The notes under the pieces: model-generated | What the model was told of the DNA's origin: nothing | What the model saw: only the letters and a program-made list of their open reading frames with translations | The model's database searches: none | In this document: positions 1-50,575 of the stretch, piece by piece | How the letters are laid out: every line of letters begins with the position of its first letter | How positions within the stretch are numbered: position 1 is the first letter of the stretch | Source of the DNA: Camelus ferus | Taxonomy: Eukaryota | DNA length: 64,000 bases | Direction of reading: 5' to 3' | NCBI RefSeq assembly: GCF_009834535.1 | Contig: NC_045696.1 | Location: 54,128,001-54,192,000, forward strand | Position numbers and translations under genes: made by a program

Positions 1-1439
1 AACATAGGTATAGGCAAGAGCAGAATTATTTTTATACTTGCCCCACGATGGAAATAACCCTCTTATGGTGAAGACTTTGATTAAGGCTGCCAATCCAAAA
101 AGCCTTTCATTTAGTTTCTGTGATACAACTCATTTTTTTCTGTAGCTTAAGCTCCTTGACTTAATTTTCTAAATTCTATGACACCCAGACCAGCACTATA
201 TTCTACAGTTTTAGGGTGTTCAGTAAATGATATGCCGTTATCAACATTCTGAAAGTTTGGCATTATGTTCCAAATGCTGACTTTTCTTCCTGGCAGGGGG
301 AGGAGGGTAATCTAGAGCAGTAATTGAGCGCATCATTATTTGTCACTGATAATAGCTATACAAATCAAACATCAATCTACTAAAATGTTTCTCTGGTTTG
401 GCCCTATACAGAATTCCAATTATGTCAAAATATTTAATCTCTGGAGGGGTAATATGAGTGTATGTGTCTCTGCATATATAAAAGTAGACACAAAGTCCTT
501 GAAACACTCAACATCTGCTCAGCCAACATTTCAAGGGTATTTAAGCTTAATGCCATCAATATTAATTCACATATAAGATGAAAGTTTCAGCCTCAACCTT
601 TGCTTAACAGTATTGAGTTAATCACCAACTATCCACTAAGATAGGGCCAGTCTACTGGCAATTGTGACCAAGTGCAGTAACGTTAGCAAAGAAAGTGCAA
701 GAAGTCATGGCCAGGGAGTAAATGTCCAGGAAGGCACCTGGTAAGGGCATTTAATTGAAAGGAATGTGAGGACAGAGGTGGGGAAGCTGTAACTGGGAGA
801 GAAAATGGAAAGCAGTGTTCACTGAAATCCAGCAAAGACAGATATTTGTATCAGAGATGCAGAATGGAAGTGGAGTGGACAGGAGAGCCTTGTTATTTCA
901 CATTTTGGAGAAGGACTGAAAAAAGAAAAGACTCAAAAAGATTGCTTTTGAAATGTACATTATTTCTCTTACTGAGAAGGAGGAAGCTTCTATAACTCTA
1001 CCTCCTTTGCAACAAAACCGCTGCTTTCACTGCCTTCTAGGTAAGTGTCACCTTCATCTCCAGACCTTGTCTGTCCCTGGCAATGGCTGAAAGGCATTCG
1101 CCCTGGACTCCTGTGAATATGTCATCTAATGAAGACATCTATTAATATGGGCACATTACAGCTCGCCATCTGGCTCTGCCTCTCAGACCGCCCTCCTCCC
1201 TATAGATCTGCACACACAGAGCGCACTGTGCCTAATCAATTATTTATCCATTTCCCTCAGTGCCCAACAGACCCAGCCTCCGCTCTCTGCTGTAAGGCTG
1301 CTGAGGGCTGGTGACACACATTTCAGGCCTGAAAACACTTTTCACCCAAACCCAACATTGAGCACTATAAAGTGCTCATATTATCCTCATTCTGTCCTTT
1401 CCTCTGGATCCCCTTGGGGGTCCCCTTCACAAAACACAC

Positions 1440-4600: not shown

Positions 4601-6279
4601 TCTTTTTTGTAATGAAGAAAAGACATATGTCTGTACTGAAATGTCTGTTGCCATCTTACTCTCCCGTCTGGCTATCACATGGCTAATTGTCCTAAAACAG
4701 CTGGATGAAGCAATAGCATCTTTAATGGCTCGACTGAAATATGGTCAGGCAGAATGAGTACAGCTATATGCCCTGCTCCCACACAGCAAAATATCTTCCA
4801 AGAAAATGTGCTTTTAATAAATTCTGTAGCCCTGAAATCCTTTTTTTTCCTTTTTCACATCATTGTCTGTGCTTTTTATGATATCCCCACAGAACAATCC
4901 TAGTTTCTTTCAGAGATAGCTACCTAAACTGTCTTTCCAGAAAAAAGAAATCCTGTTTTATTCAGGATGCTGAGTATTCTAAGTTTGTGATGCGAACTAG
5001 GAACATGACACACATTATAATAATGTTTGTTTATCTAGAATTTTGTCATCTGCAAATTCATCAAGTGCTTCCTTCATCTTCCAGTAGAAGGCTAATAGAT
5101 ATTTATGTGATAGCAACTTGAACATTTTCAGAGAGAGTAATTTGTGAATAAATGGTAATTTCCATTCATTGGTTAAGAGGAACATTCTTATTGTCAGAAC
5201 ATTCCATCGCCAGTCATTCTTAATAAAGGCTGCTTAGTTCATAAGGCTTAATGTATAGATGCTTAGTTTCTACAGTGGGTGTCTGCTACATGGATTGTCT
5301 CTTCTCTGAAAGTTAAGCGGTTTATTCTCTAAATCAAGACTTATGAATGTACAGGCTGTTATTCTAGATTCTAAAACTGCCTTTGTTAATTATATTCATA
5401 TAAATTCTCAATCCCCTTTTAGAGTCTTCCTAAATTACCTGCTTAATATTGTCCAGCATCAGTGACTTTCATAGGTTAATTATTCCCCACATAAAAGGCA
5501 TCAGCTTTGTCCAGACAAAATTTGTTACCTTGTCATTTGATTAACTTTTTCCCTTTGGTTCAAAGAAACAGAATAAGGTGAGGAGTCACTGGCCATCTAT
5601 CTAATAACAATGCATCACATTCACAGAACATCTATCTATCCATCTATCATAGCTCTATATATTCATAAACACAAGATGGCTCTTCAGTCACAGAGAAATA
5701 AAGGGGGGGGACAGAAAGATCACCAGTTTCACTCCTACTCTGTCTCTCCACTTTGTATGTAAAGGACAGTCTGACCTCAGTACTATCTTCTCTGTTACTT
5801 GTGAGGTATCCCAGAAAGGCCATGTTTGATTTGACTGAAGGAATAGAGGGAAAGTCAGGGAGGGGTAATGGCAGGTTTTACATTTAGATGGGAAAAGGCA
5901 TCTTCTGGCAGATCCTCATAGTCTAATATCCTTTTGTGCTGTTTCCTTTTCTCTAACCCTACGTTGACACCTGGAAGCTAAGGAAGGCTCTTGCCTTAAA
6001 TATTGTATTTGTAAAAGTAGCCATTAGTTCATAAAAGACATGTATGTCTTTTCATCATCTCCAAAGATTCCCTCTATAATCTATTTCCAGGACCACTGAA
6101 CACTCATTCCATCTAGTTTATCTTTTAATTTTCCTTTAGTCCTCTAATGTCCTTTGTCCCCCTAATGTTTAAGCTCTTTAAAGTTGGAAATTAATTACTG
6201 TTTGCACGAAGCATAGTGCATGCTTAATAAGTATCTGTGGAAATGAACTGCAAGATCAAGCCTAGCTTGGTACTCAAGG

Positions 6280-37655: not shown

Positions 37656-40600
37656 TTAGATTCCACATATGAGCGATCTCATATGGTATTTTTCTTTCTC
37701 TTTCTGGCTTACTTCACTTAGAATGACATTCTCCAGGAGCATCCATGTTGCTGCAAATGGCATTATGTTGTCGGTTTTTATGGCTGAGTAGTATTCCATT
37801 GTATAAATATACCACCTCTTCTTTACCCAGTCACCTGTTGATGGACATTTAGGCTGTTTCCATGTTTTGGCTATTGTAAATAGTGCTGCTATGAACATTG
37901 GGGTGCAGGTGTCATCCTGAAGTAGATTTCCTTCTGGATACAAGCCCAGGAGTGGGATTCCTGGGTCATATGGTAAGTCTAGTCCTAGTCTTTTGAGGAA
38001 TCTCCACACTGTTTTCCATAGTGGCTGCACCAAACTGCATTCCCACCAGCAGTGTAGGAGGGTTCCCCTTTCTCCACAGCCTCTCCAGCATTTGTCATTT
38101 GTGGATTTTTGAATGACGGCCATTCTGACTGGTGTGAGTTGATACCTCATTGTAGTTTTGATTTGCATTTCTCTGATAATTAGTGATATTGAGCATTTTT
38201 TCATGTGCTTTTTGATCATTTGAATGTCTTCCTTGGAGAATTGCTTGTTTAGGTCTTCTGCCCATTTTTGGATTGGGTTGTTTATTTTTTTCTTATTGAG
38301 TCGTATGAGCTGCTTATATATTCTGGAGATCAAGCCTTTGTCGGTTTCACTTGCAAAAATTTTCTCCCATTCCGTAGGTTTTCTTCTTGTTTTATTTCTG
38401 GTTTCCTTTGCTGTGCAGAAGCTTGTAAGTTTCATTAGGTCCCATTTGTTTATTCTTGCTTTTATTTCTTCTAGGAGAAAATTTTTGAAATGTATGTCAG
38501 ATAATGTTTTGCCTATTTTTTCCTCTAGGAGGTTTATTGCATCTTGTCTTATGTTTAAGTCTTTGATCCATTTTGAGTTGATTTTTGTATATGGTGTAAG
38601 GGAGTGTTCTAGCCTCATTGTTTTACATGCTGCTGTCCAGTTTTCCCAACACCATTTGCTGAAGAGACTGTCTTTATTCCAATGTATATTCTTGCCTCCT
38701 TTGTCAAAGATGAGTTGACCAAAAGTGTGTGGGTTCATTTCTGGGCTCTCTATTCTGTTCCATTGGTCTATATGTCTGTTTTGGTACCAATACCATGCTG
38801 TCTTGATGACTGTAGCTCTATAGTATTGTCTGAAGTCTGGGAGAGTTATTCCTCCAGCCTCTTTCTTTCTCTTCAGTAATGCTTTGGCAATTCTAGGTCT
38901 TTGATGGTTCCATATGAATTTTATTATGATTTTTTCTAGTTCTGTGAAATATGTCCTGGGTAATTGGATAGGGATTGCATTAAACCTGTAGATTGCCTTG
39001 GGCAGTGTGACCATTTTAACAATATTGATTCTTCCAATCCAAGAGCATGGAATATCTTTCCATTTTTTAAAGTCTTCTTTAATTTCCTTCATCAATGGTT
39101 TATAGTTTTCTGTGTATAATTCTTTCACCACCTTGGTTAGATTTATTCCCAGATATTTTATTACTTTGGGTGCTATTTTAAAGGGGATTGTTTCTTTACT
39201 TTCTTCTTCTGTTGATTTATCGTTAGTGTAAAGAAATGCAACTGATTTTTGAACGTTAATTTTGTAACCTGCTACCTTGCTGAATTCTTCAATCAGCTCT
39301 AGTAGCTTTTGTGTGGACCTTTTAGGGTTTTCTATATATAGTAACATGTCATCAGCATATAATGACACTTTTACCTCTTCTTTTCCAATTTGGATCCCTT
39401 TTATTTCTTTCTCTTGCCTGACTGCTGTGGCTAGGACTTCCAGGACTATGTTGAATAGGAGTGGTGATAGTGGGCATCCTTGTCTTGTCCCAGATTTTAG
39501 TGGGAAGCTTTTGAGTTTTTCACCGTTGAGTACTATGCTGGCTGTAGGTTTGTCATATATAGCTTTTATGATGTTGAGATATGTTCCCTCCATACCCACT
39601 TTGGCGAGAGTTTTTATCATAAATGGGTGTTGAATTTTATCAAATGCTTTTTCTGCATCGATGGAGATGATCATGTGGTTTTTGTCCTTTCTCTTGTTGA
39701 TGTGATGTATTACATTGATTGATTTGTGTATGTTGAACCAGCCTTGTGTCCCTGGGATGAACCCCACTTGGTCATGATGTATAATCTTTTTTATGTGTTG
39801 TTGGATTCTATTTGCTAAAATTTTGGTGAGGATTTTGGCGTCTATGTTCATCAGTGATATTGGCCTATAATTCTCTTTTTTTGTAGTGTCTTTGCCTGGT
39901 TTTGGTATCAGGGTGATGGTGGCTTCATAGAATGAGTTTGGGAGTATTCCCTCCTTTTCAATCACCTGGAAGAGTTTGAGAAGGACTGGTGTGAGTTCTT
40001 CTTTGTATGTTTGGTAGAATTCCCCGGTGAAGCCGTCCGGTCCTGGACTTTTATTTGTAGGGAGGTTTTTAATTGCTATTTCTATTTCCTTTCTAGTGAT
40101 CGGATTGTTCAAGTGTTCAGATTCTTCTTGATTCAGTTTTGGTGGACAGTATGTTTCCAGAAACTTGTCCATCTCCTCTAGGTTATCCAGTTTGGTTCCA
40201 TATAGTTTTTCATAATAGATCTCGTATGATATTCTGTATTTCTGTTTTGTTTGTTGTAATTTCTCCATTTTCCTTTCTTATTTTGCTAATTTGTGCTCTC
40301 TCTTTTTTCTTCTTTGTGAGTTTGGCCAGAGGTTTGTCGATTTTATTTACTTTTTCAAAAAACCAGCTTTTGGTTTGATTGATTTTTTGTATGGTCTTGT
40401 TAATCTCTATTGTATTTAATTCCTCTCTGATCTTTATTATTTCCTTCCTTCTGCTGCTTTTTGGGGCTTTTTGTTCTTCTTTTCCTAATTCATTCAGGTG
40501 GTGGGTTAAATTGTTTATTTGAGATTGTTCTTCTTTTTTGAGGAAGGCCTGTATCGCTATAAACTTCCCTCTTAGCACTGCCTTTGCTGTGTCCCATAGG

Positions 40601-41455
40601 TTTTGAGTGGTTGTGCTTTCATTATCATTTGTCTCAAGGTATTTTTTAATTTCAGCTTTGATTTCCTCATTGATCCATTGTTTTTTCAATAACATATTGT
40701 TTAATCTCCATGCTTTCCTTTTTTTCTCCTTTGTTTCTCTGTTGTTGATTTCCAGTTTCATGGCATTGTGCTCAGTGAAGATGCTTGAGATAATTTCTAT
40801 CTTCTTAAAATTGTTGAGGTTTCTTTTGTGCCCAAGTACATGATCGATCCTGGAAAATGTTCCATGTGCACTTGAAAATAATGTATATCCTATTTTTTGA
40901 GGGTGTAATGCTCTGAAAATATCCACCAAATCTAGTTTTTCTATTGTAGTATTTAATTTCTCTGTTGCCTTGTTTATTTTCTGTCTGGAAGATCTGTCTA
41001 GTGATGTTAATGCAGTGTTAAAATCTCCAACTATGATTGTATTCCCATCAATATCCCCCTTTATCTCTGTTAGTCATTCTTGTATGTACTTAGGTGCTCC
41101 TATATTGGGTGCATATATATTAACGAGTGTAATATCCTCATCTTGTATCACTCCTTTAATCATTATAAAATGTCCTTCTTTATCTTTCTTTATGGCCTTT
41201 GTTTTAAAGTCTATTTTGTCTGAAATCAGTACTGCAACACCTGCTTTTTTGGCTTTTCCATTTGCATGGAATATCCTTTTCCATCCTTTCACTCTCAATC
41301 TACATGTGTCCTTCTCCCTAAAGTGGGTCTCTTGTATGCAGCATATTGAAGGTTCTTGCTTTATTATCCAGTCTGCCACTCTGTGTCTTTTGACTGGAGC
41401 ATTTCAGTCCATTAACATTTACAGTAATTAATGATAGATGTGTGTTTATTGCCAT
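37656..41455 (-). pseudogene. L1 ORF2 (endonuclease/reverse transcriptase), disrupted
   Basis: Starts MAINTHLSLITVNVNGL at 41455. EN motifs CCIQETH, NIYAPN, IVGDFN; RT motifs [16 protein letters not shown] and YADD; C-terminal HCWWEC. Lesions: +1 frameshift ~41403, in-frame TGA at 41074-41076, +1 frameshift ~40219. Confidence 0.96.
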
Positions 41456-41862
41456 TTTGAACTTATCTTTGCAGTTGAATTGGTATATCCTCTTTGTTCC
41501 GTTCTTCTTCCTTTTGTGGTTTGGTAATTTTCCTTTGTATTATCATGGATTTTATTTACTTTTTGTGACTCCTTTGTAAATTTTTGGCTTGTGGTTACCC
41601 TTTTTTGTAAATCTATCAACCCATTACTATAACTGTTTTTATTAAACTGATAGTAACATGATCTCAAACCCATCCTACTGTTAAAAAAAAATTGAAAAAA
41701 GAAAGAAAAAAATATTCTATATTTCCCTGCCTCCCTCTCCCACTCTCAGTGATTTGTATGTCTTCTTTTATAATTTCATGTTTACTTTTATTTGTAATTC
41801 ATGAGTTATCACCTTTCCAGTTGTGTGTTTCTCGTTTCTGTAGCATCCTGCTGCTTTTCTAT

Positions 41863-42778
41863 TTAGAATAGCCCTTTCAATATTTCTTTTAGCATGGGTT
41901 TAGTGTTGTTAAACTCCTGCAGCTTTTTTTTTTTTTTTTTGTCTGTGAAACTCTTTATTTCTCCTTCTATCCTCAACGATAGCCTTGCTGGATAAAGGAT
42001 CCTAGGCTGCATCTTTTTTTCATTCAGGGCTTTGAATATATCTTGCCACTCCCCACTCCCTTCTGGCCTGTAGTGTTTGTGTAGAGAAATCAGCTGAGAG
42101 CCTTATGGGGGTTCCCTTGTAACTTACTCTTTGCTTTTCTCTTGCTGCCTTTAGAATCATTTCTTTATCCTTGACTCTGGCCATCTTGATTATGCTATGT
42201 CTTGGTGTGAGTCTATTTGGGTTCTTCCTGTTTGGGACCCTCTGAGCTTCCTGTACTTGGATATCTGATTCCTTCTTTAAGTTTGGGAAGTTTTCAGTCA
42301 TGATTTCTTCAAAAACCTTTTCAATCCCCTTTGATCTTTCTTCTCCTTCTGGGACCCCTATTATGTGAAGATTGGGATGCTTTATATTATCCCATAGGTC
42401 CCTTATGCTATTTTCATTATTTTTTATTTGCTTCTCTTGTAGTTCTGAATGGGTGCTTTCTATTGCCCTGTCTTCTAGATCACTAATTCATTCTTCTGCA
42501 TTATCTAGTCGGCTTTGCACAGCTATTAGATCATTCCTCATCTCTGTCAATGAGTTTACCCATTCTACTTGGCTCTTCTTTATAGCTTCAATTTCATTTT
42601 TGACATATTTTATATCTCTAAACACTATCTCTTTTAATTCCTTCAGCAATTCGATCACTCCTTTTTTGAAATCTTGATCTAGTAGGCTATCGATGTCTAT
42701 TTCGTTGATCTTTCTTTCAGGGGATTTCTGTTGTTCTTTTAATTGGGAAAGGTTTTTCTGCTTCTTCATCTTGCTCAT
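41863..42778 (-). pseudogene. L1 ORF1 (RNA-binding/chaperone protein), disrupted
   Basis: MSKMKKQKN... coiled coil, then IIGVPE, ENFPNL, TPRHSIIK, YKGTPIRLSADFS, ending LKEILKGLF* at 41863. Lesions: TGA at 42488-42490 (likely CGA>TGA) and a 7-bp duplication (GGAGTGG) ~42047-42060. An A17 run at 41924-41940 stays in frame. Confidence 0.93.
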
Positions 42779-43179
42779 ACCTCTTTGGCACTGTGGTTTA
42801 TGGAGTATCAGTTGTTTAATTTGGTCCTTAAGGATTTTATCTATCTGATGCCTATTTAGGAATAGAACTTAAGAAAAAAAGAAAAAAAAAATAAGAGAGA
42901 GAGAGAAAGAATTTTAAAAGAAGGGAGAAAGAGGGTTTGAAAACAGTGTATAATGAATAATAGAAGAGTGAGTTGAAGCAGAGTATTAATCGGGTTGAGA
43001 CGTCCTTTTGAAACCTTTACAAAAAAAGGGGGGGGGGAGATGAATAGATGTATTTGAAACCTGTGTCTAATCAATAGCAGGACATCAAAACCCAAGAGAA
43101 ATAGAAATGAATTAAGAAGTAAAGATTAAGAGAGTAATAGAAAATAGAACAGGTAAAAACAGATTAAAAAAAAAAGGGG

Positions 43180-44471
43180 GGGGTTGTCGGTGTTCTCCTG
43201 GAGTCTGTGTGCTTTTAATGTGAAGTCTTTCTGTCTTCGTCCTGTTTTGGAAGCTCAGCTTGCTGTTTTCAGAGGCCCTCCGTTGGCGCCCTCTTCTGTG
43301 CTGCTCCCAGCACCTGTCGGCAAGCAGATCGCGCCTCCTCCTAACACTGGGTCAGGTGCAGCTCTCTGCTGTGGGCGGGCGGGTCGCTGCCCCTCCGGAT
43401 GCCGCAGTCAGATGTTGCAGACTGGCCGGGTAGGAGGGCGGGTCGTGCCCTCTCCCAGCACCTCGGTCAGGGGCTGTGTTCCTGCCCGAAAGGCGGGGGG
43501 CCGCTCTCGCTCTACCTGCACCGCCGCCGGTAGCTCCGCTGCTCTGTGCGGCTGCGCGCTCCGCCACCGGCGCTCCGTCCGTCCTGGTCGGCGCTCCGCG
43601 GGTGGGCTCGGGGAAGACCTAGGGACAGCACTGTCCCTGCTCGGAGCCAAAACCCAGCTCCTTGTTTGTCTTTGTGGAGCAAGTTCTCTGAGGGACCAGG
43701 ATGGAAGGATCCTATCTGCCCGCGGCTGCAGGCCAGTCTCAGTCTGGCCTTTGAGGCTGCTAAGCCCTTCGGTGTGGATGCAGGTTTCGCCCCCGCTCCC
43801 GCCTGAGTGCTCAGCGCGGAGGATATGGCGACTGTGCCTGAGCCCCGCCTCTCTTCCCCCGAAAACTTTCCGCGGGTTTTCAGAGATGGGGGTGTGCACC
43901 CTTCCCCCAAGAGCACATCAACCTTGCTGTTTTATGGAGGGCCCAGGTTGTTCTGCCCTGTGCACCCACAGCCACGGCGTGCAGCCCCTTGCGTTCCCCC
44001 GGGGCTGCCTCCGTGCAGCCACTTTCGTCCTCCGCCCGGCTTGTGCAGCCTGGCCCTGCTCGCGGCTGCCGGCCCGCATCTCAGGCTGGGTGTCGGGGGG
44101 ACGCTCTGTGCCCGTTTAACTTAGTTCTGTTAGTCAAGGGCTGCTCTGTACAGATCCGAGCCTTGGAGGCTCCCCCTCCGTCCCGCTGGCCTCTCAGTTG
44201 GAGAGGGGAGACCCAGCGAGCGAGCGCCAGTCCTCCTTTGCCGCTCCCTCCCCGCGGGACCCGTCCAGCGCTGCTTTGCCTTTTGTTCTTTCTTTTTTCC
44301 TTTTCTCCTACCAGATTTTTGGCGTCTTTATCTTTTGAAGAGGGCGATGTTCTGTCGGAGTTCCACAGGTGCTCTGGTTGGCTGAGTGGGTCTGTAGATG
44401 TGGGTCTTGGTGTATTTGTGGGAGAGGGTGACCTGCGAGCGTCCTTCTACTCTGCCATCTTCTCCGTCTTC
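43180..44471 (-). promoter_or_regulatory. L1 5'UTR internal promoter / CpG island, with YY1 motif AAGATGGC at 44454-44461
   Basis: Only strongly GC- and CpG-rich stretch in the window. The element begins GAAGACGGAGAAGATGGCAGAG, with the YY1 core near the 5' end as in other mammalian L1 promoters. Confidence 0.85.
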
Positions 44472-50481: not shown

Positions 50482-50575
50482 ACTTACCATTTCTCTAAAC
50501 AACATTCTGGTAAGATTAAGAAAGCAGCAGGACTTACCTGGAAAAAAGAAAGAGAAAAAGAAGAGATTAAAACAA
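50482..50575 (-). other. Candidate recursive splice site (AG|GT at 50538|50537) with 50-nt RS-exon (50537-50488) and downstream alternative 5' splice site
   Basis: Minus strand reads ttttaat-ctcttctttttctctttcttttttc-CAG|GTAAGTcctgctgctttcttaatcttaccagaatgttgtttagagaaATG|GTAAGTtaag. That is a branch-point-like TTAAT, a pure pyrimidine tract, an acceptor fused to a consensus donor, and a second consensus donor 50 nt further on. Confidence 0.7.

What the first reader, a model, noticed from the sequence alone, without database searches (positions are those of the whole stretch)
50482..50575. Recursive splice site with a 50-nt RS-exon on the minus strand
Seen: on the minus strand, TTTTAAT (branch-point-like, about -30), a 26-nt pure C/T tract, then CAG immediately followed by the perfect donor GTAAGT (junction 50538|50537). 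Exactly 50 nt later comes a second perfect donor, ATG|GTAAGT (50488|50487). The 50-nt exon is not a multiple of 3 and has TAA, TAA, TAG in one frame. Established: this is the vertebrate recursive-splicing layout described in very long introns of brain-expressed genes such as CADM1, CADM2, PDE4D, ROBO2, ANK3, OPCML and HS6ST3. There, exon definition marks the site, the regenerated donor skips the RS-exon, and inclusion after cryptic upstream exons tends to trigger NMD. Inference: the window lies in a giant intron of a minus-strand gene that is removed stepwise. I cannot identify the gene, so this may be the ortholog of a known site or a new one.
Basis: partly seen in the sequence, partly recalled or inferred. 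Interest (0 to 1): 0.82.

Follow-up and report, generated by a model that had tools for sequence, protein, structure and literature searches.

The report
Camel LSAMP recursive splice site
This is a real-looking stepping-stone splice site deep inside the 1.36-million-base first intron of the camel brain adhesion gene LSAMP, and it matches a site already shown to work this way in mouse, so it is a sound but not a new discovery.

Summary
On the minus strand a 27-nt pyrimidine run is followed by CAG|GTAAGT (junction 50538|50537), a 50-nt segment and a second donor ATG|GTAAGT.

The window is G000:C1:54128001-54192000 of a camel genome. It lies wholly inside the 1,355,482-nt intron between LSAMP exon 1a and exon 1b''. 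LSAMP is on the minus strand.

The site is 575 kb downstream of exon 1a. It is the second of four co-oriented Y-tract+AGGTAAGT sites. Their spacing is 0.82-0.91 times that of the four recursive splice (RS) sites reported in mouse Lsamp by Moon & Zhao 2022 (PMC8797253), which that paper reports with junction reads and a saw-tooth profile for all four, and RT-PCR for three of them.

The flagged site corresponds to mouse RS2:
- RS-exon of 50 nt, against 48 nt in mouse.
- Downstream donor ATG|GTAAGT, against GTG|GTAAGT.
- An all-pyrimidine 20-mer ending in TTCC|AG in both species.
- The mouse RS2 RS-exon primer matches inside the camel RS-exon.

Use of the site in camel is therefore inferred from orthology.

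Novelty is low: this is the ortholog of a published site. This scan has flagged recursive sites before on other DNA, but none in LSAMP.

The parts
50566..50572 (-). Branch-point-like TTTTAAT; its last A (50567) lies 30 nt upstream of the 3' splice site
   Evidence: Read directly and position computed. Its use as a branch point is inferred, not shown.
50540..50566 (-). 27-nt uninterrupted pyrimidine tract of the recursive 3' splice site
   Evidence: The 20 nt before AG are 20 of 20 pyrimidines, as in mouse Lsamp RS2 (100% T+C, 3'SS MaxEnt 14.81 in S3E of PMC8797253). Ungapped identity to the mouse 20-mer is 14 of 20.
50532..50539 (-). Recursive junction AG|GTAAGT (AG at 50539-50538; regenerated donor GTAAGT at 50537-50532)
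   Evidence: It is one of 375 genome-wide matches to YYYYYYYYNYAGGTAAGT. Joined to exon 1a, which ends in AAG, it would re-form AAG|GTAAGT. That is the r5'SS listed for mouse RS1/RS2 (MaxEnt about 11).
50488..50537 (-). 50-nt cryptic RS-exon
   Evidence: Mouse RS2 has a 48-nt RS-exon. The reverse complement of the mouse RS2 RS-exon primer matches camel RS-exon positions 28-44 at 14 of 17 bases. In 3000 random 300-nt camel windows, 2% scored as high. In-silico inclusion after exon 1a shifts the frame and gives a premature stop at codon 57, 25 nt before the end of exon 1b''.
50482..50487 (-). Downstream donor GTAAGT of the RS-exon (ATG|GTAAGT), expected to serve exon definition
   Evidence: Mouse RS2 has GTG|GTAAGT (MaxEnt 10.36). 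The 9-mer ATGGTAAGT is scored 11.01 in another row of the same supplement.

Best explanation
The flagged element is the camel ortholog of mouse Lsamp recursive splice site 2 (RS2).

Where it lies. It sits 575 kb into the 1.355-Mb intron that separates the promoter-1a first exon of LSAMP from exon 1b''.

Proposed mechanism (inferred by orthology and from the published vertebrate model):
1. The strong 3' splice site and the ATG|GTAAGT donor 50 nt downstream define a cryptic 50-nt RS-exon.
2. The upstream exon is spliced to it. This is exon 1a, carried forward from RS1.
3. That join re-creates a consensus donor, AAG|GTAAGT, at the junction.
4. The regenerated donor is then used for the next step, towards RS3, RS4 and finally exon 1b''. 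The 50 nt are therefore removed and leave no trace in the mRNA.
5. If the downstream donor wins instead, the 50 nt are included. The frame shifts and a premature stop arises in exon 1b'', which should make the transcript an NMD target.

What is shown here: the sequence anatomy, the host gene and its strand, the intron size, and the collinearity and sequence match with the four mouse sites.

What is shown only in mouse, by others: junction reads, a saw-tooth profile and RT-PCR intermediates.

What is inferred: that the site is used in camel, and that inclusion leads to NMD.
For: (1) Host gene and strand.
- GAP43 (PF06614) lies at C1:52,729,816-52,772,574, about 1.4 Mb from the site.
- There is a single CpG island in the 140 kb examined, at C1:54,753,300-54,754,500.
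- Within it, an ATG at 54,754,026 opens a 22-codon signal-peptide ORF ending CAAG|GTAAGG on the minus strand.
- That ORF is 22 of 22 identical to the N-terminus of mouse LSAMP isoform 4.
- The mouse downstream-exon primer has one genome-wide hit with a single mismatch, at C1:53,398,387.
- The exon there translates to a 51-aa ORF that is 100% identical to 'limbic system-associated membrane protein isoform X1 [Camelus dromedarius]'.
- The exon 1a donor to the internal acceptor CCCACAG|GA spans 1,355,482 nt, and the whole window lies inside that span.

(2) Four collinear sites.
- Minus-strand Y-tract+AGGTAAGT sites lie at C1:54,514,798, 54,178,538 (the finding), 53,882,815 and 53,697,187.
- Camel intervals from exon 1a are 239.2, 336.3, 295.7 and 185.6 kb.
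- Mouse intervals are 277.5, 393.5, 323.7 and 227.5 kb (coordinates).
- The ratios are 0.86, 0.85, 0.91 and 0.82.

(3) Sequence match with the mouse sites.
- Camel RS4 matches the 20 nt upstream of mouse RS4 at 19 of 20. RS1, RS2 and RS3 each match their mouse counterpart at 14 of 20. That is the best score in the row for RS1 and RS2. Camel RS3 ties with mouse RS1 at 14 of 20.
- RS-exon lengths agree: RS2 50 against 48 nt, RS4 61 against 57 nt.
- The mouse RS2 primer matches 14 of 17 inside the camel RS-exon. The null fraction is 0.02.

(4) Function in mouse (PMC8797253).
- RS2 has 79 up-junction and 4 down-junction reads (S4).
- The Lsamp sites show a saw-tooth profile, and RT-PCR intermediates were obtained for RS1-RS3 (passages).

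(5) Mechanism in print.
- Efficient recursive splicing of cryptic RS-exons needs an RS-5'ss that outcompetes the downstream 5'ss (Blazquez 2018, PMC6224609, passage).
- Included RS-exons carry premature stops (review PMC5126111, passage).
Against: - No RNA from camel was examined.
- The cross-species comparison rests on only about 50 nt of mouse sequence printed in a supplement (a 20-mer, a 22-nt primer and 9-mers), not on a genome alignment.
- Pyrimidine tracts are low-complexity. A score of 14 of 20 barely separates RS2 from the off-diagonal comparisons (9-13 of 20).
- The best window-wide match of the mouse RS2 primer is a 14 of 14 exact match at 5760-5773. No splice motif lies nearby, so I read it as chance.
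- The regenerated donor and the downstream donor are about equally strong (about 11.0 against 11.01 by the paper's table). Sequence alone does not predict that skipping wins.
- The downstream donors of camel RS1 and RS3 are not at the mouse positions, which shows turnover in this system.
- A pattern scan of metagenome contigs for further orthologs found 0.
Confidence: 0.85

Rival explanations
1. It is mainly a conserved 50-nt poison (cassette) exon. In this reading it is spliced in through its downstream donor to down-regulate LSAMP-1a output by NMD, and the GTAAGT at its 5' end is incidental or secondary.
For: The downstream donor ATG|GTAAGT is as strong as the regenerated donor (table values). 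Inclusion gives a frameshift and a premature stop. Mouse RS2 does show 4 down-junction reads. The same paper describes 'RS-like cryptic exons' that use their downstream donor (S4C).
Against: In mouse, up-junction reads outnumber down-junction reads 79 to 4 at RS2. The intron shows a saw-tooth profile and RT-PCR recursive intermediates. The exact AGGTAAGT is kept in camel and mouse at all four sites. RS-exon length differs between species (50 against 48 nt), so neither frame nor coding content is conserved.
Confidence: 0.08
2. It is a chance or decaying splice-like motif with no role in camel. Under this reading the mouse resemblance reflects low-complexity pyrimidine tracts and shared synteny only.
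For: The strict motif is not enriched genome-wide (375 hits against 477 for the reversed control). Identity of 14 of 20 in a pyrimidine tract is weak. There is no camel RNA evidence.
Against: Three strict hits lie on the sense strand of one intron where 0.12 are expected (P = 2.7e-4). A fourth site, RS1, was the only minus-strand AGGTAAG site with at least 14 of 20 upstream pyrimidines in the 120 kb searched. All four lie at 0.82-0.91 of the mouse spacing. RS4 is 19 of 20 identical to mouse. A second perfect donor lies at nearly the mouse distance (50 against 48 nt).
Confidence: 0.04
3. It is a genuine coding alternative exon of LSAMP, an extra signal-peptide segment like the rodent exon 1a'.
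For: Frame 3, the frame entered from exon 1a, is open through the 50 nt. Rodent Lsamp has an extra 60-nt coding exon 1a' in the same intron.
Against: Fifty nt is not a multiple of 3, and inclusion ends in a stop 18 codons into exon 1b''. tblastn of four LSAMP N-termini (P0068, P0073, P0069, P0074) against the window gave no hit with E < 1. Exon 1a' is described as rodent-specific and lies between RS2 and RS3 in mouse, not at RS2.
Confidence: 0.02

Closest known systems
Mouse Lsamp recursive splice site RS2 (mm10 chr16:40,655,810; RS-exon 40,655,812-40,655,859), Moon & Zhao 2022, PLoS One, PMC8797253
   Same: Same gene and same intron (downstream of exon 1a). Both are the second of four collinear sites. 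Both have AGGTAAGT preceded by a 20 of 20 pyrimidine tract ending TTCC. Both have a short RS-exon (48 nt in mouse, 50 nt in camel) closed by NTG|GTAAGT. The mouse RS-exon primer matches inside the camel RS-exon.
   Different: The species differs, and the RS-exon is 2 nt longer, so it shifts the frame in camel while the mouse length is a multiple of 3. The camel site has no RNA evidence. In camel no exon 1a' was found, so RS3 and RS4 would have to be reached from exon 1a. In mouse they are reached from exon 1a'.
Vertebrate recursive splice sites with cryptic RS-exons in CADM1, CADM2, ANK3, OPCML, NTM, PDE4D, ROBO2 and HS6ST3 (Sibley et al. 2015, recalled and as cited in PMC6224609 and PMC5126111; mouse rows seen in PMC8797253 supplements)
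   Same: The layout is the same: YAG|GTAAGT deep in the first intron of a long neuronal adhesion gene, with exon definition by a downstream donor and a premature stop on inclusion. OPCML and NTM are IgLON paralogs of LSAMP with the same twin-promoter structure (PMC5288359).
   Different: These are different genes. LSAMP carries four sites in one intron, the largest number for a single gene in the mouse list.
Drosophila ratchet points (Ubx, kuz and others; Hatton 1998, Burnette 2005 and Duff 2015, recalled and as cited)
   Same: A juxtaposed acceptor and donor that regenerates a 5' splice site for stepwise removal of a long intron. Most are followed by a downstream 5'ss within 100 nt.
   Different: These are invertebrate sites and far more numerous (197 against 10 efficient sites). 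There is no orthology.
Annotated RS-exons repressed by the exon junction complex (Blazquez et al. 2018, PMC6224609)
   Same: An exon that begins with GTAAGT and so re-forms a 5'ss after being joined to the preceding exon.
   Different: Those exons are normally kept in the mRNA because the EJC blocks the RS-5'ss. This one is cryptic and expected to be skipped. 'LSAMP' does not occur in the 5 supplement files held for that paper.

Membership tests
Vertebrate intronic recursive splice site with cryptic RS-exon | Juxtaposed strong 3' splice site and 5' splice site (Y-tract + YAG|GTAAGT) | tested here: met
   A 27-nt pyrimidine run followed by CAG|GTAAGT. It matches the strict pattern, which occurs only 375 times in 2.087 Gb.
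Vertebrate intronic recursive splice site with cryptic RS-exon | Lies on the sense strand, deep in a very long (>50 kb) first or second intron of a long gene | tested here: met
   Minus strand, the same as LSAMP. The site is 575,422 nt from the exon 1a donor, inside a 1,355,482-nt first intron.
Vertebrate intronic recursive splice site with cryptic RS-exon | A downstream 5' splice site that defines an RS-exon | tested here: met
   ATG|GTAAGT lies 50 nt downstream. This 9-mer is scored 11.01 in S4C of PMC8797253.
Vertebrate intronic recursive splice site with cryptic RS-exon | The preceding exon ends so that a strong 5' splice site is regenerated | tested here: met
   Camel exon 1a ends ...CAAG, giving AAG|GTAAGT. 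This is identical to the mouse r5'SS.
Vertebrate intronic recursive splice site with cryptic RS-exon | Conservation of the site across species | tested here: met
   Tested for camel against mouse only. Four sites are collinear at 0.82-0.91 of the mouse spacing. The upstream 20-mers match at 14-19 of 20. RS-exon lengths are 50 against 48 nt and 61 against 57 nt. No multi-species alignment was available.
Vertebrate intronic recursive splice site with cryptic RS-exon | RNA evidence: junction reads from the upstream exon into the site, a saw-tooth intron coverage profile, and the recursive intermediate by RT-PCR | not testable with these tools
The evidence exists for the mouse ortholog: 79 up-junction reads, a saw-tooth profile and RT-PCR.
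Vertebrate intronic recursive splice site with cryptic RS-exon | Inclusion of the RS-exon disrupts the reading frame (premature stop) | tested here: met
   In-silico splice of exon 1a + 50 nt + exon 1b'' gives a frameshift and a stop at codon 57, 25 nt before the end of that exon. That this triggers NMD is inferred.
LSAMP exon 1a' (rodent extra coding exon) | A 60-nt in-frame exon encoding the 20-residue segment seen in mouse isoform 4 | tested here: not met
   tblastn of P0068 and P0073 found no match with E < 1 to that segment in the window or in 54.05-54.08 Mb. The flagged exon is 50 nt and unrelated. Exon 1a' is described as rodent-only.

The most novel reading that the evidence does not exclude
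Non-rodent mammals such as camel lack exon 1a'. In them, all four conserved sites may act in series from exon 1a, so that a single 1.36-Mb intron is removed in five steps. That would be among the longest recursively spliced introns known.

RS2 keeps two equally strong donors in both camel and mouse. It may therefore work as a tunable NMD switch that sets the output of the 1a promoter relative to the 1b promoter, rather than as a mere processing aid.

The sites may also date back to the common ancestor of the IgLON genes, since OPCML and NTM carry recursive sites in the equivalent 1a introns.
Probability: 0.2. Interest if true: 0.45.

Novelty: already known. Interest (0 to 1): 0.25.

Why it matters
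The result shows that a reader working from raw sequence alone can pick out a true recursive splice site, and it names the gene.

Biologically it adds a modest point. The four recursive sites of Lsamp, described so far only in mouse in the papers I could search, are kept in position and core sequence in a camel. The RS-exon length, however, is free to change by non-multiples of 3. This fits a role in RNA processing or quality control and argues against a coding role.

LSAMP is a giant neuronal adhesion gene. Correct removal of its 1.36-Mb intron is a precondition for all promoter-1a transcripts.

Tried and rejected
- **Camel RNA evidence.** The look-up of sequencing runs listed 24 runs. No reads or contigs were laid, so nothing can be said about expression or junctions in camel. 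The unlaid 'RNA?' holders may be DNA and are not used as evidence.
- **Mouse primers as orthology probes over the whole window.** Best scores were 10-14 and scattered. The RS2 primer's best hit, 14 of 14 at 5760-5773, has no AGGT junction nearby. I rejected it as chance.
- **Mouse exon-1a forward primer genome-wide with up to 3 mismatches.** It gave 372 hits, including one at C1:55,442,780 (minus strand). I rejected that as chance. The true exon 1a was found through the CpG island at 54.754 Mb, where the primer matches 15 of 17.
- **PDB sequence search with the 51-aa exon 1b ORF.** It gave 0 hits and was uninformative.
- **Metagenome-contig scan for orthologs.** I used a pattern built from the camel/mouse-shared bases and found 0 hits.
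- **Search for rodent exon 1a' in camel.** It was not found, which fits its rodent-only status.
- **Published human LSAMP recursive sites.**
  - 'LSAMP' is absent from the supplements held for Hoppe 2023 (4 files) and Blazquez 2018 (5 files).
  - Sibley 2015 is not held.
  - I therefore cannot say whether the human site is in print.
- **The exon 1a' reading of the 50-nt segment.** I considered and rejected this; see the rival explanations.

Full report
**Observation.** The minus strand of the window reads as follows.
- TTTTAAT lies at 50572-50566, with its last A at -30.
- An uninterrupted pyrimidine run of 27 nt covers 50566-50540.
- AG lies at 50539-50538, followed at once by GTAAGT at 50537-50532.
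- Fifty nt after the junction comes ATG|GTAAGT, with GTAAGT at 50487-50482.
- Frame 2 of the 50 nt carries TAA, TAA and TAG. Frames 1 and 3 are open.

**Is it more than chance?**
- Of the 4 AGGTAAGT in the window on both strands, only this one has a pyrimidine-rich upstream 30 nt (28 of 30, against 15-19 of 30).
- Across the whole 2.087-Gb genome, the pattern YYYYYYYYNYAGGTAAGT occurs 375 times. The reversed control pattern occurs 477 times, so the motif as such is not enriched. A single occurrence proves little: about 0.01 is expected per 64-kb window.

**Where the window lies.**
- The window is G000:C1:54128001-54192000.
- Earlier notes of this scan said the genome is a camel's and that the start of this contig carries human chromosome 21 genes. 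I used that only as a lead.
- Ephrin-receptor ligand-binding exons on C1 at 35.47, 38.33, 70.83 and 108.76 Mb fit the order of EPHA3, EPHA6, EPHB1 and EPHB3 on human chromosome 3. That order is recalled, not tested.
- GAP43 (PF06614) lies at C1:52,729,816-52,772,574 on the plus strand.
- From memory, LSAMP is the next gene and runs on the opposite strand. I then tested this directly.

**The host gene is LSAMP, on the minus strand.**
- In 140 kb fetched around the expected place there is one CpG island, at C1:54,753,300-54,754,500. The mouse exon-1a forward primer has its best match there, 15 of 17 on the minus strand.
- On the minus strand, an ATG at 54,754,026 opens a 22-codon signal-peptide ORF that ends CAAG|GTAAGG. 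The last exon base is 54,753,960, in phase 1.
- This peptide is 22 of 22 identical to the N-terminus of 'limbic system-associated membrane protein isoform 4 precursor [Mus musculus]' (P0068).
- The mouse downstream-exon primer has a single genome-wide hit with 1 mismatch, at C1:53,398,387-53,398,406.
- The sequence there holds the promoter-1b first exon. It contains an internal acceptor CCCACAG|GACTGCCC, so the exon starts at 53,398,477 and ends at 53,398,399.
- Its 51-aa ORF is 100% identical to 'limbic system-associated membrane protein isoform X1 [Camelus dromedarius]', and the named matches in the list are almost all LSAMP, from many vertebrates.
- This is the published twin-promoter structure: 1a transcripts are 1a + 1b'' + exon 2, and an extra exon 1a' occurs only in rodent Lsamp (PMC5288359, figure-legend passages).
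- The intron from the exon 1a donor to the 1b'' acceptor is 1,355,482 nt. The whole window lies inside it, and the flagged junction is 575,422 nt downstream of exon 1a.

**Match to published recursive sites.**
- From that paper I read passages, four sections and supplements S1-S5.
- It reports four recursive sites in mouse Lsamp that were new in mice. All show a saw-tooth profile, and RT-PCR intermediates were obtained for three of them.
- The supplements give the following:

| Mouse element | mm10 position (chr16) | RS-exon length | Downstream 5'ss |
|---|---|---|---|
| End of exon 1a | 39,984,727 | - | - |
| RS1 | 40,262,266 | 202 nt | - |
| RS2 | 40,655,810 | 48 nt | GTG\|GTAAGT |
| RS3 | 40,979,498 | 132 nt | - |
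| RS4 | 41,206,970 | 57 nt | - |

- RS2 has 79 up-junction and 4 down-junction reads.
- The supplements also print the 20 nt upstream of each AGGT.

**The camel sites.**
- Of the 17 strict-pattern hits on the 122-Mb contig C1, three lie on the minus strand inside the LSAMP intron: 53,697,181-198, 53,882,809-826 and the flagged site at 54,178,532-549.
- Only 0.12 hits are expected on one strand of 1.355 Mb (Poisson P for 3 or more = 2.7e-4).
- A fourth site, TTCTTCTTTTTATTTTTTCTAG|GTAAGT at 54,514,798, was the only minus-strand AGGTAAG site with at least 14 of 20 upstream pyrimidines in the 120 kb fetched around the place predicted for RS1.

**Spacing compared with mouse.**

| Interval | Camel (kb) | Mouse (kb) | Ratio |
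|---|---|---|---|
| Exon 1a to RS1 | 239.2 | 277.5 | 0.86 |
| RS1 to RS2 | 336.3 | 393.5 | 0.85 |
| RS2 to RS3 | 295.7 | 323.7 | 0.91 |
| RS3 to RS4 | 185.6 | 227.5 | 0.82 |

**Sequence compared with mouse.**
- Camel RS4 shares 19 of 20 upstream bases with mouse RS4.
- RS1, RS2 and RS3 each share 14 of 20 with their counterparts. This is the best score in its row for RS1 and RS2. Camel RS3 ties with mouse RS1. Off-diagonal values range from 8 to 14.
- For the flagged site, both species have a 20 of 20 pyrimidine tract ending TTCC|AGGTAAGT.
- The RS-exon is 50 nt against 48 nt, and the closing donor is ATG|GTAAGT against GTG|GTAAGT.
- The reverse complement of the mouse 'RS2 reverse RS-exon' primer aligns to camel RS-exon positions 28-44 at 14 of 17. 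Only 2% of 3000 random 300-nt camel windows score as high.
- The RS3 primer gives weaker support (fraction 0.085), and the RS1 primer gives none (0.65).
- Independent support for RS3: a chimpanzee record, 'LSAMP isoform 7, partial' (P0069), has an N-terminal stretch of which 18 of 20 residues match the translated camel RS3 RS-exon region.

I conclude that the flagged site is the ortholog of mouse Lsamp RS2.

**Mechanism.**
- The published vertebrate model runs as follows (Blazquez 2018, PMC6224609, summary and passages; review PMC5126111, passage).
  - The RS-exon is first defined by its 3' splice site and its downstream donor.
  - It is then joined to the preceding exon, which re-creates a donor (the RS-5'ss) at the junction.
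  - A strong RS-5'ss outcompetes the downstream donor, so the RS-exon is removed with the next intron segment.
- In camel, exon 1a ends in AAG, so the regenerated donor would be AAG|GTAAGT, as in mouse.
- If the 50 nt were kept, translation from exon 1a would read through them in frame 3 without a stop. The 50 nt shift the phase, and a stop follows at codon 57, 25 nt before the end of exon 1b''.
- Several exon junctions lie downstream of that stop, so NMD is expected. This is an inference.
- The mouse RS-exon is 48 nt and the camel one 50 nt. The length is not held to a multiple of three, which fits a non-coding role.
- Exon 1a' was not found in camel and is described as rodent-only. Camel RS3 and RS4 would therefore be reached from exon 1a, whereas in mouse their junction reads start from exon 1a' (upstream exon end 40,786,060).

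**What is missing.**
- I could not look at camel RNA. The run search listed 24 runs.
A pattern scan of metagenome contigs for further orthologs found nothing.
- Sibley 2015 is not held.
- 'LSAMP' does not occur in the supplements held for Hoppe 2023 or Blazquez 2018.
- I therefore cannot say whether the human LSAMP sites are in print.

**Verdict.**
- The element is a recursive splice site with a cryptic RS-exon, a known kind. It is the ortholog of a site already demonstrated in mouse.
- This scan has flagged recursive sites before on other DNA, but none in LSAMP.
- Interest is low to moderate.
- The added value is the identification of the gene and the evidence that all four Lsamp sites are conserved in a camelid. 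RS2 and RS4 also keep their RS-exon size to within a few nt. The downstream donors of RS1 and RS3 have moved or been lost.

Noticed in passing
G000:C1:54,514,798 (locus L012), 53,882,815 (L002) and 53,697,187 (L003), minus strand, outside the window: Three further recursive-type sites of camel LSAMP, orthologs of mouse RS1, RS3 and RS4. RS4 keeps 19 of 20 upstream bases and a 61-nt RS-exon (57 nt in mouse) closed by CAG|GTAACT. Camel RS1 has AAGATAAGT (AT, not GT) 229 nt downstream of its junction. Mouse RS1 closes its 202-nt RS-exon with AAG|GTAAGT, but whether the two places correspond is not shown. The nearest usable donor in camel RS1 is TTC|GTGAGT at 124 nt. Camel RS3 has only ATG|GTAATA at 94 nt.
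   Followed up: partly
L002 (C1:53,881,500-53,884,000), about 1170-1307 in locus coordinates, minus strand: A chimpanzee database protein, 'LSAMP isoform 7, partial' (P0069), has an N-terminus that matches the translated camel RS3 RS-exon region at 18 of 20 residues, and it begins at the GTAAGTGAA of the recursive junction. A gene model in another species therefore includes the RS3 RS-exon as a cassette exon.
   Followed up: partly
window 37656-44470, minus strand: A young L1 retrotransposon lies in the sense orientation of LSAMP, about 6-13 kb downstream of the recursive site. It has an 870-aa ORF with a reverse-transcriptase domain (PF00078, E 3.8e-49). Window 44000-44470, which I take to be its 5' end, matches dozens of 95-99% identical copies across the genome.
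   Followed up: partly
window 1039-1046, plus strand: A second AG|GTAAGT with a moderately pyrimidine-rich upstream tract (16 of 20) lies on the strand antisense to LSAMP. No downstream analysis was done. It is probably chance.
   Followed up: no
window 5760-5773, plus strand: A 14 of 14 exact match to the mouse Lsamp RS2 reverse primer, in the orientation expected for a minus-strand gene, but with no AGGT junction nearby. I judged it a chance match.
   Followed up: yes
L033 (C1:53,398,300-53,398,400 and nearby): Long (GT)n microsatellites lie immediately downstream of the donor of LSAMP exon 1b''.
   Followed up: no
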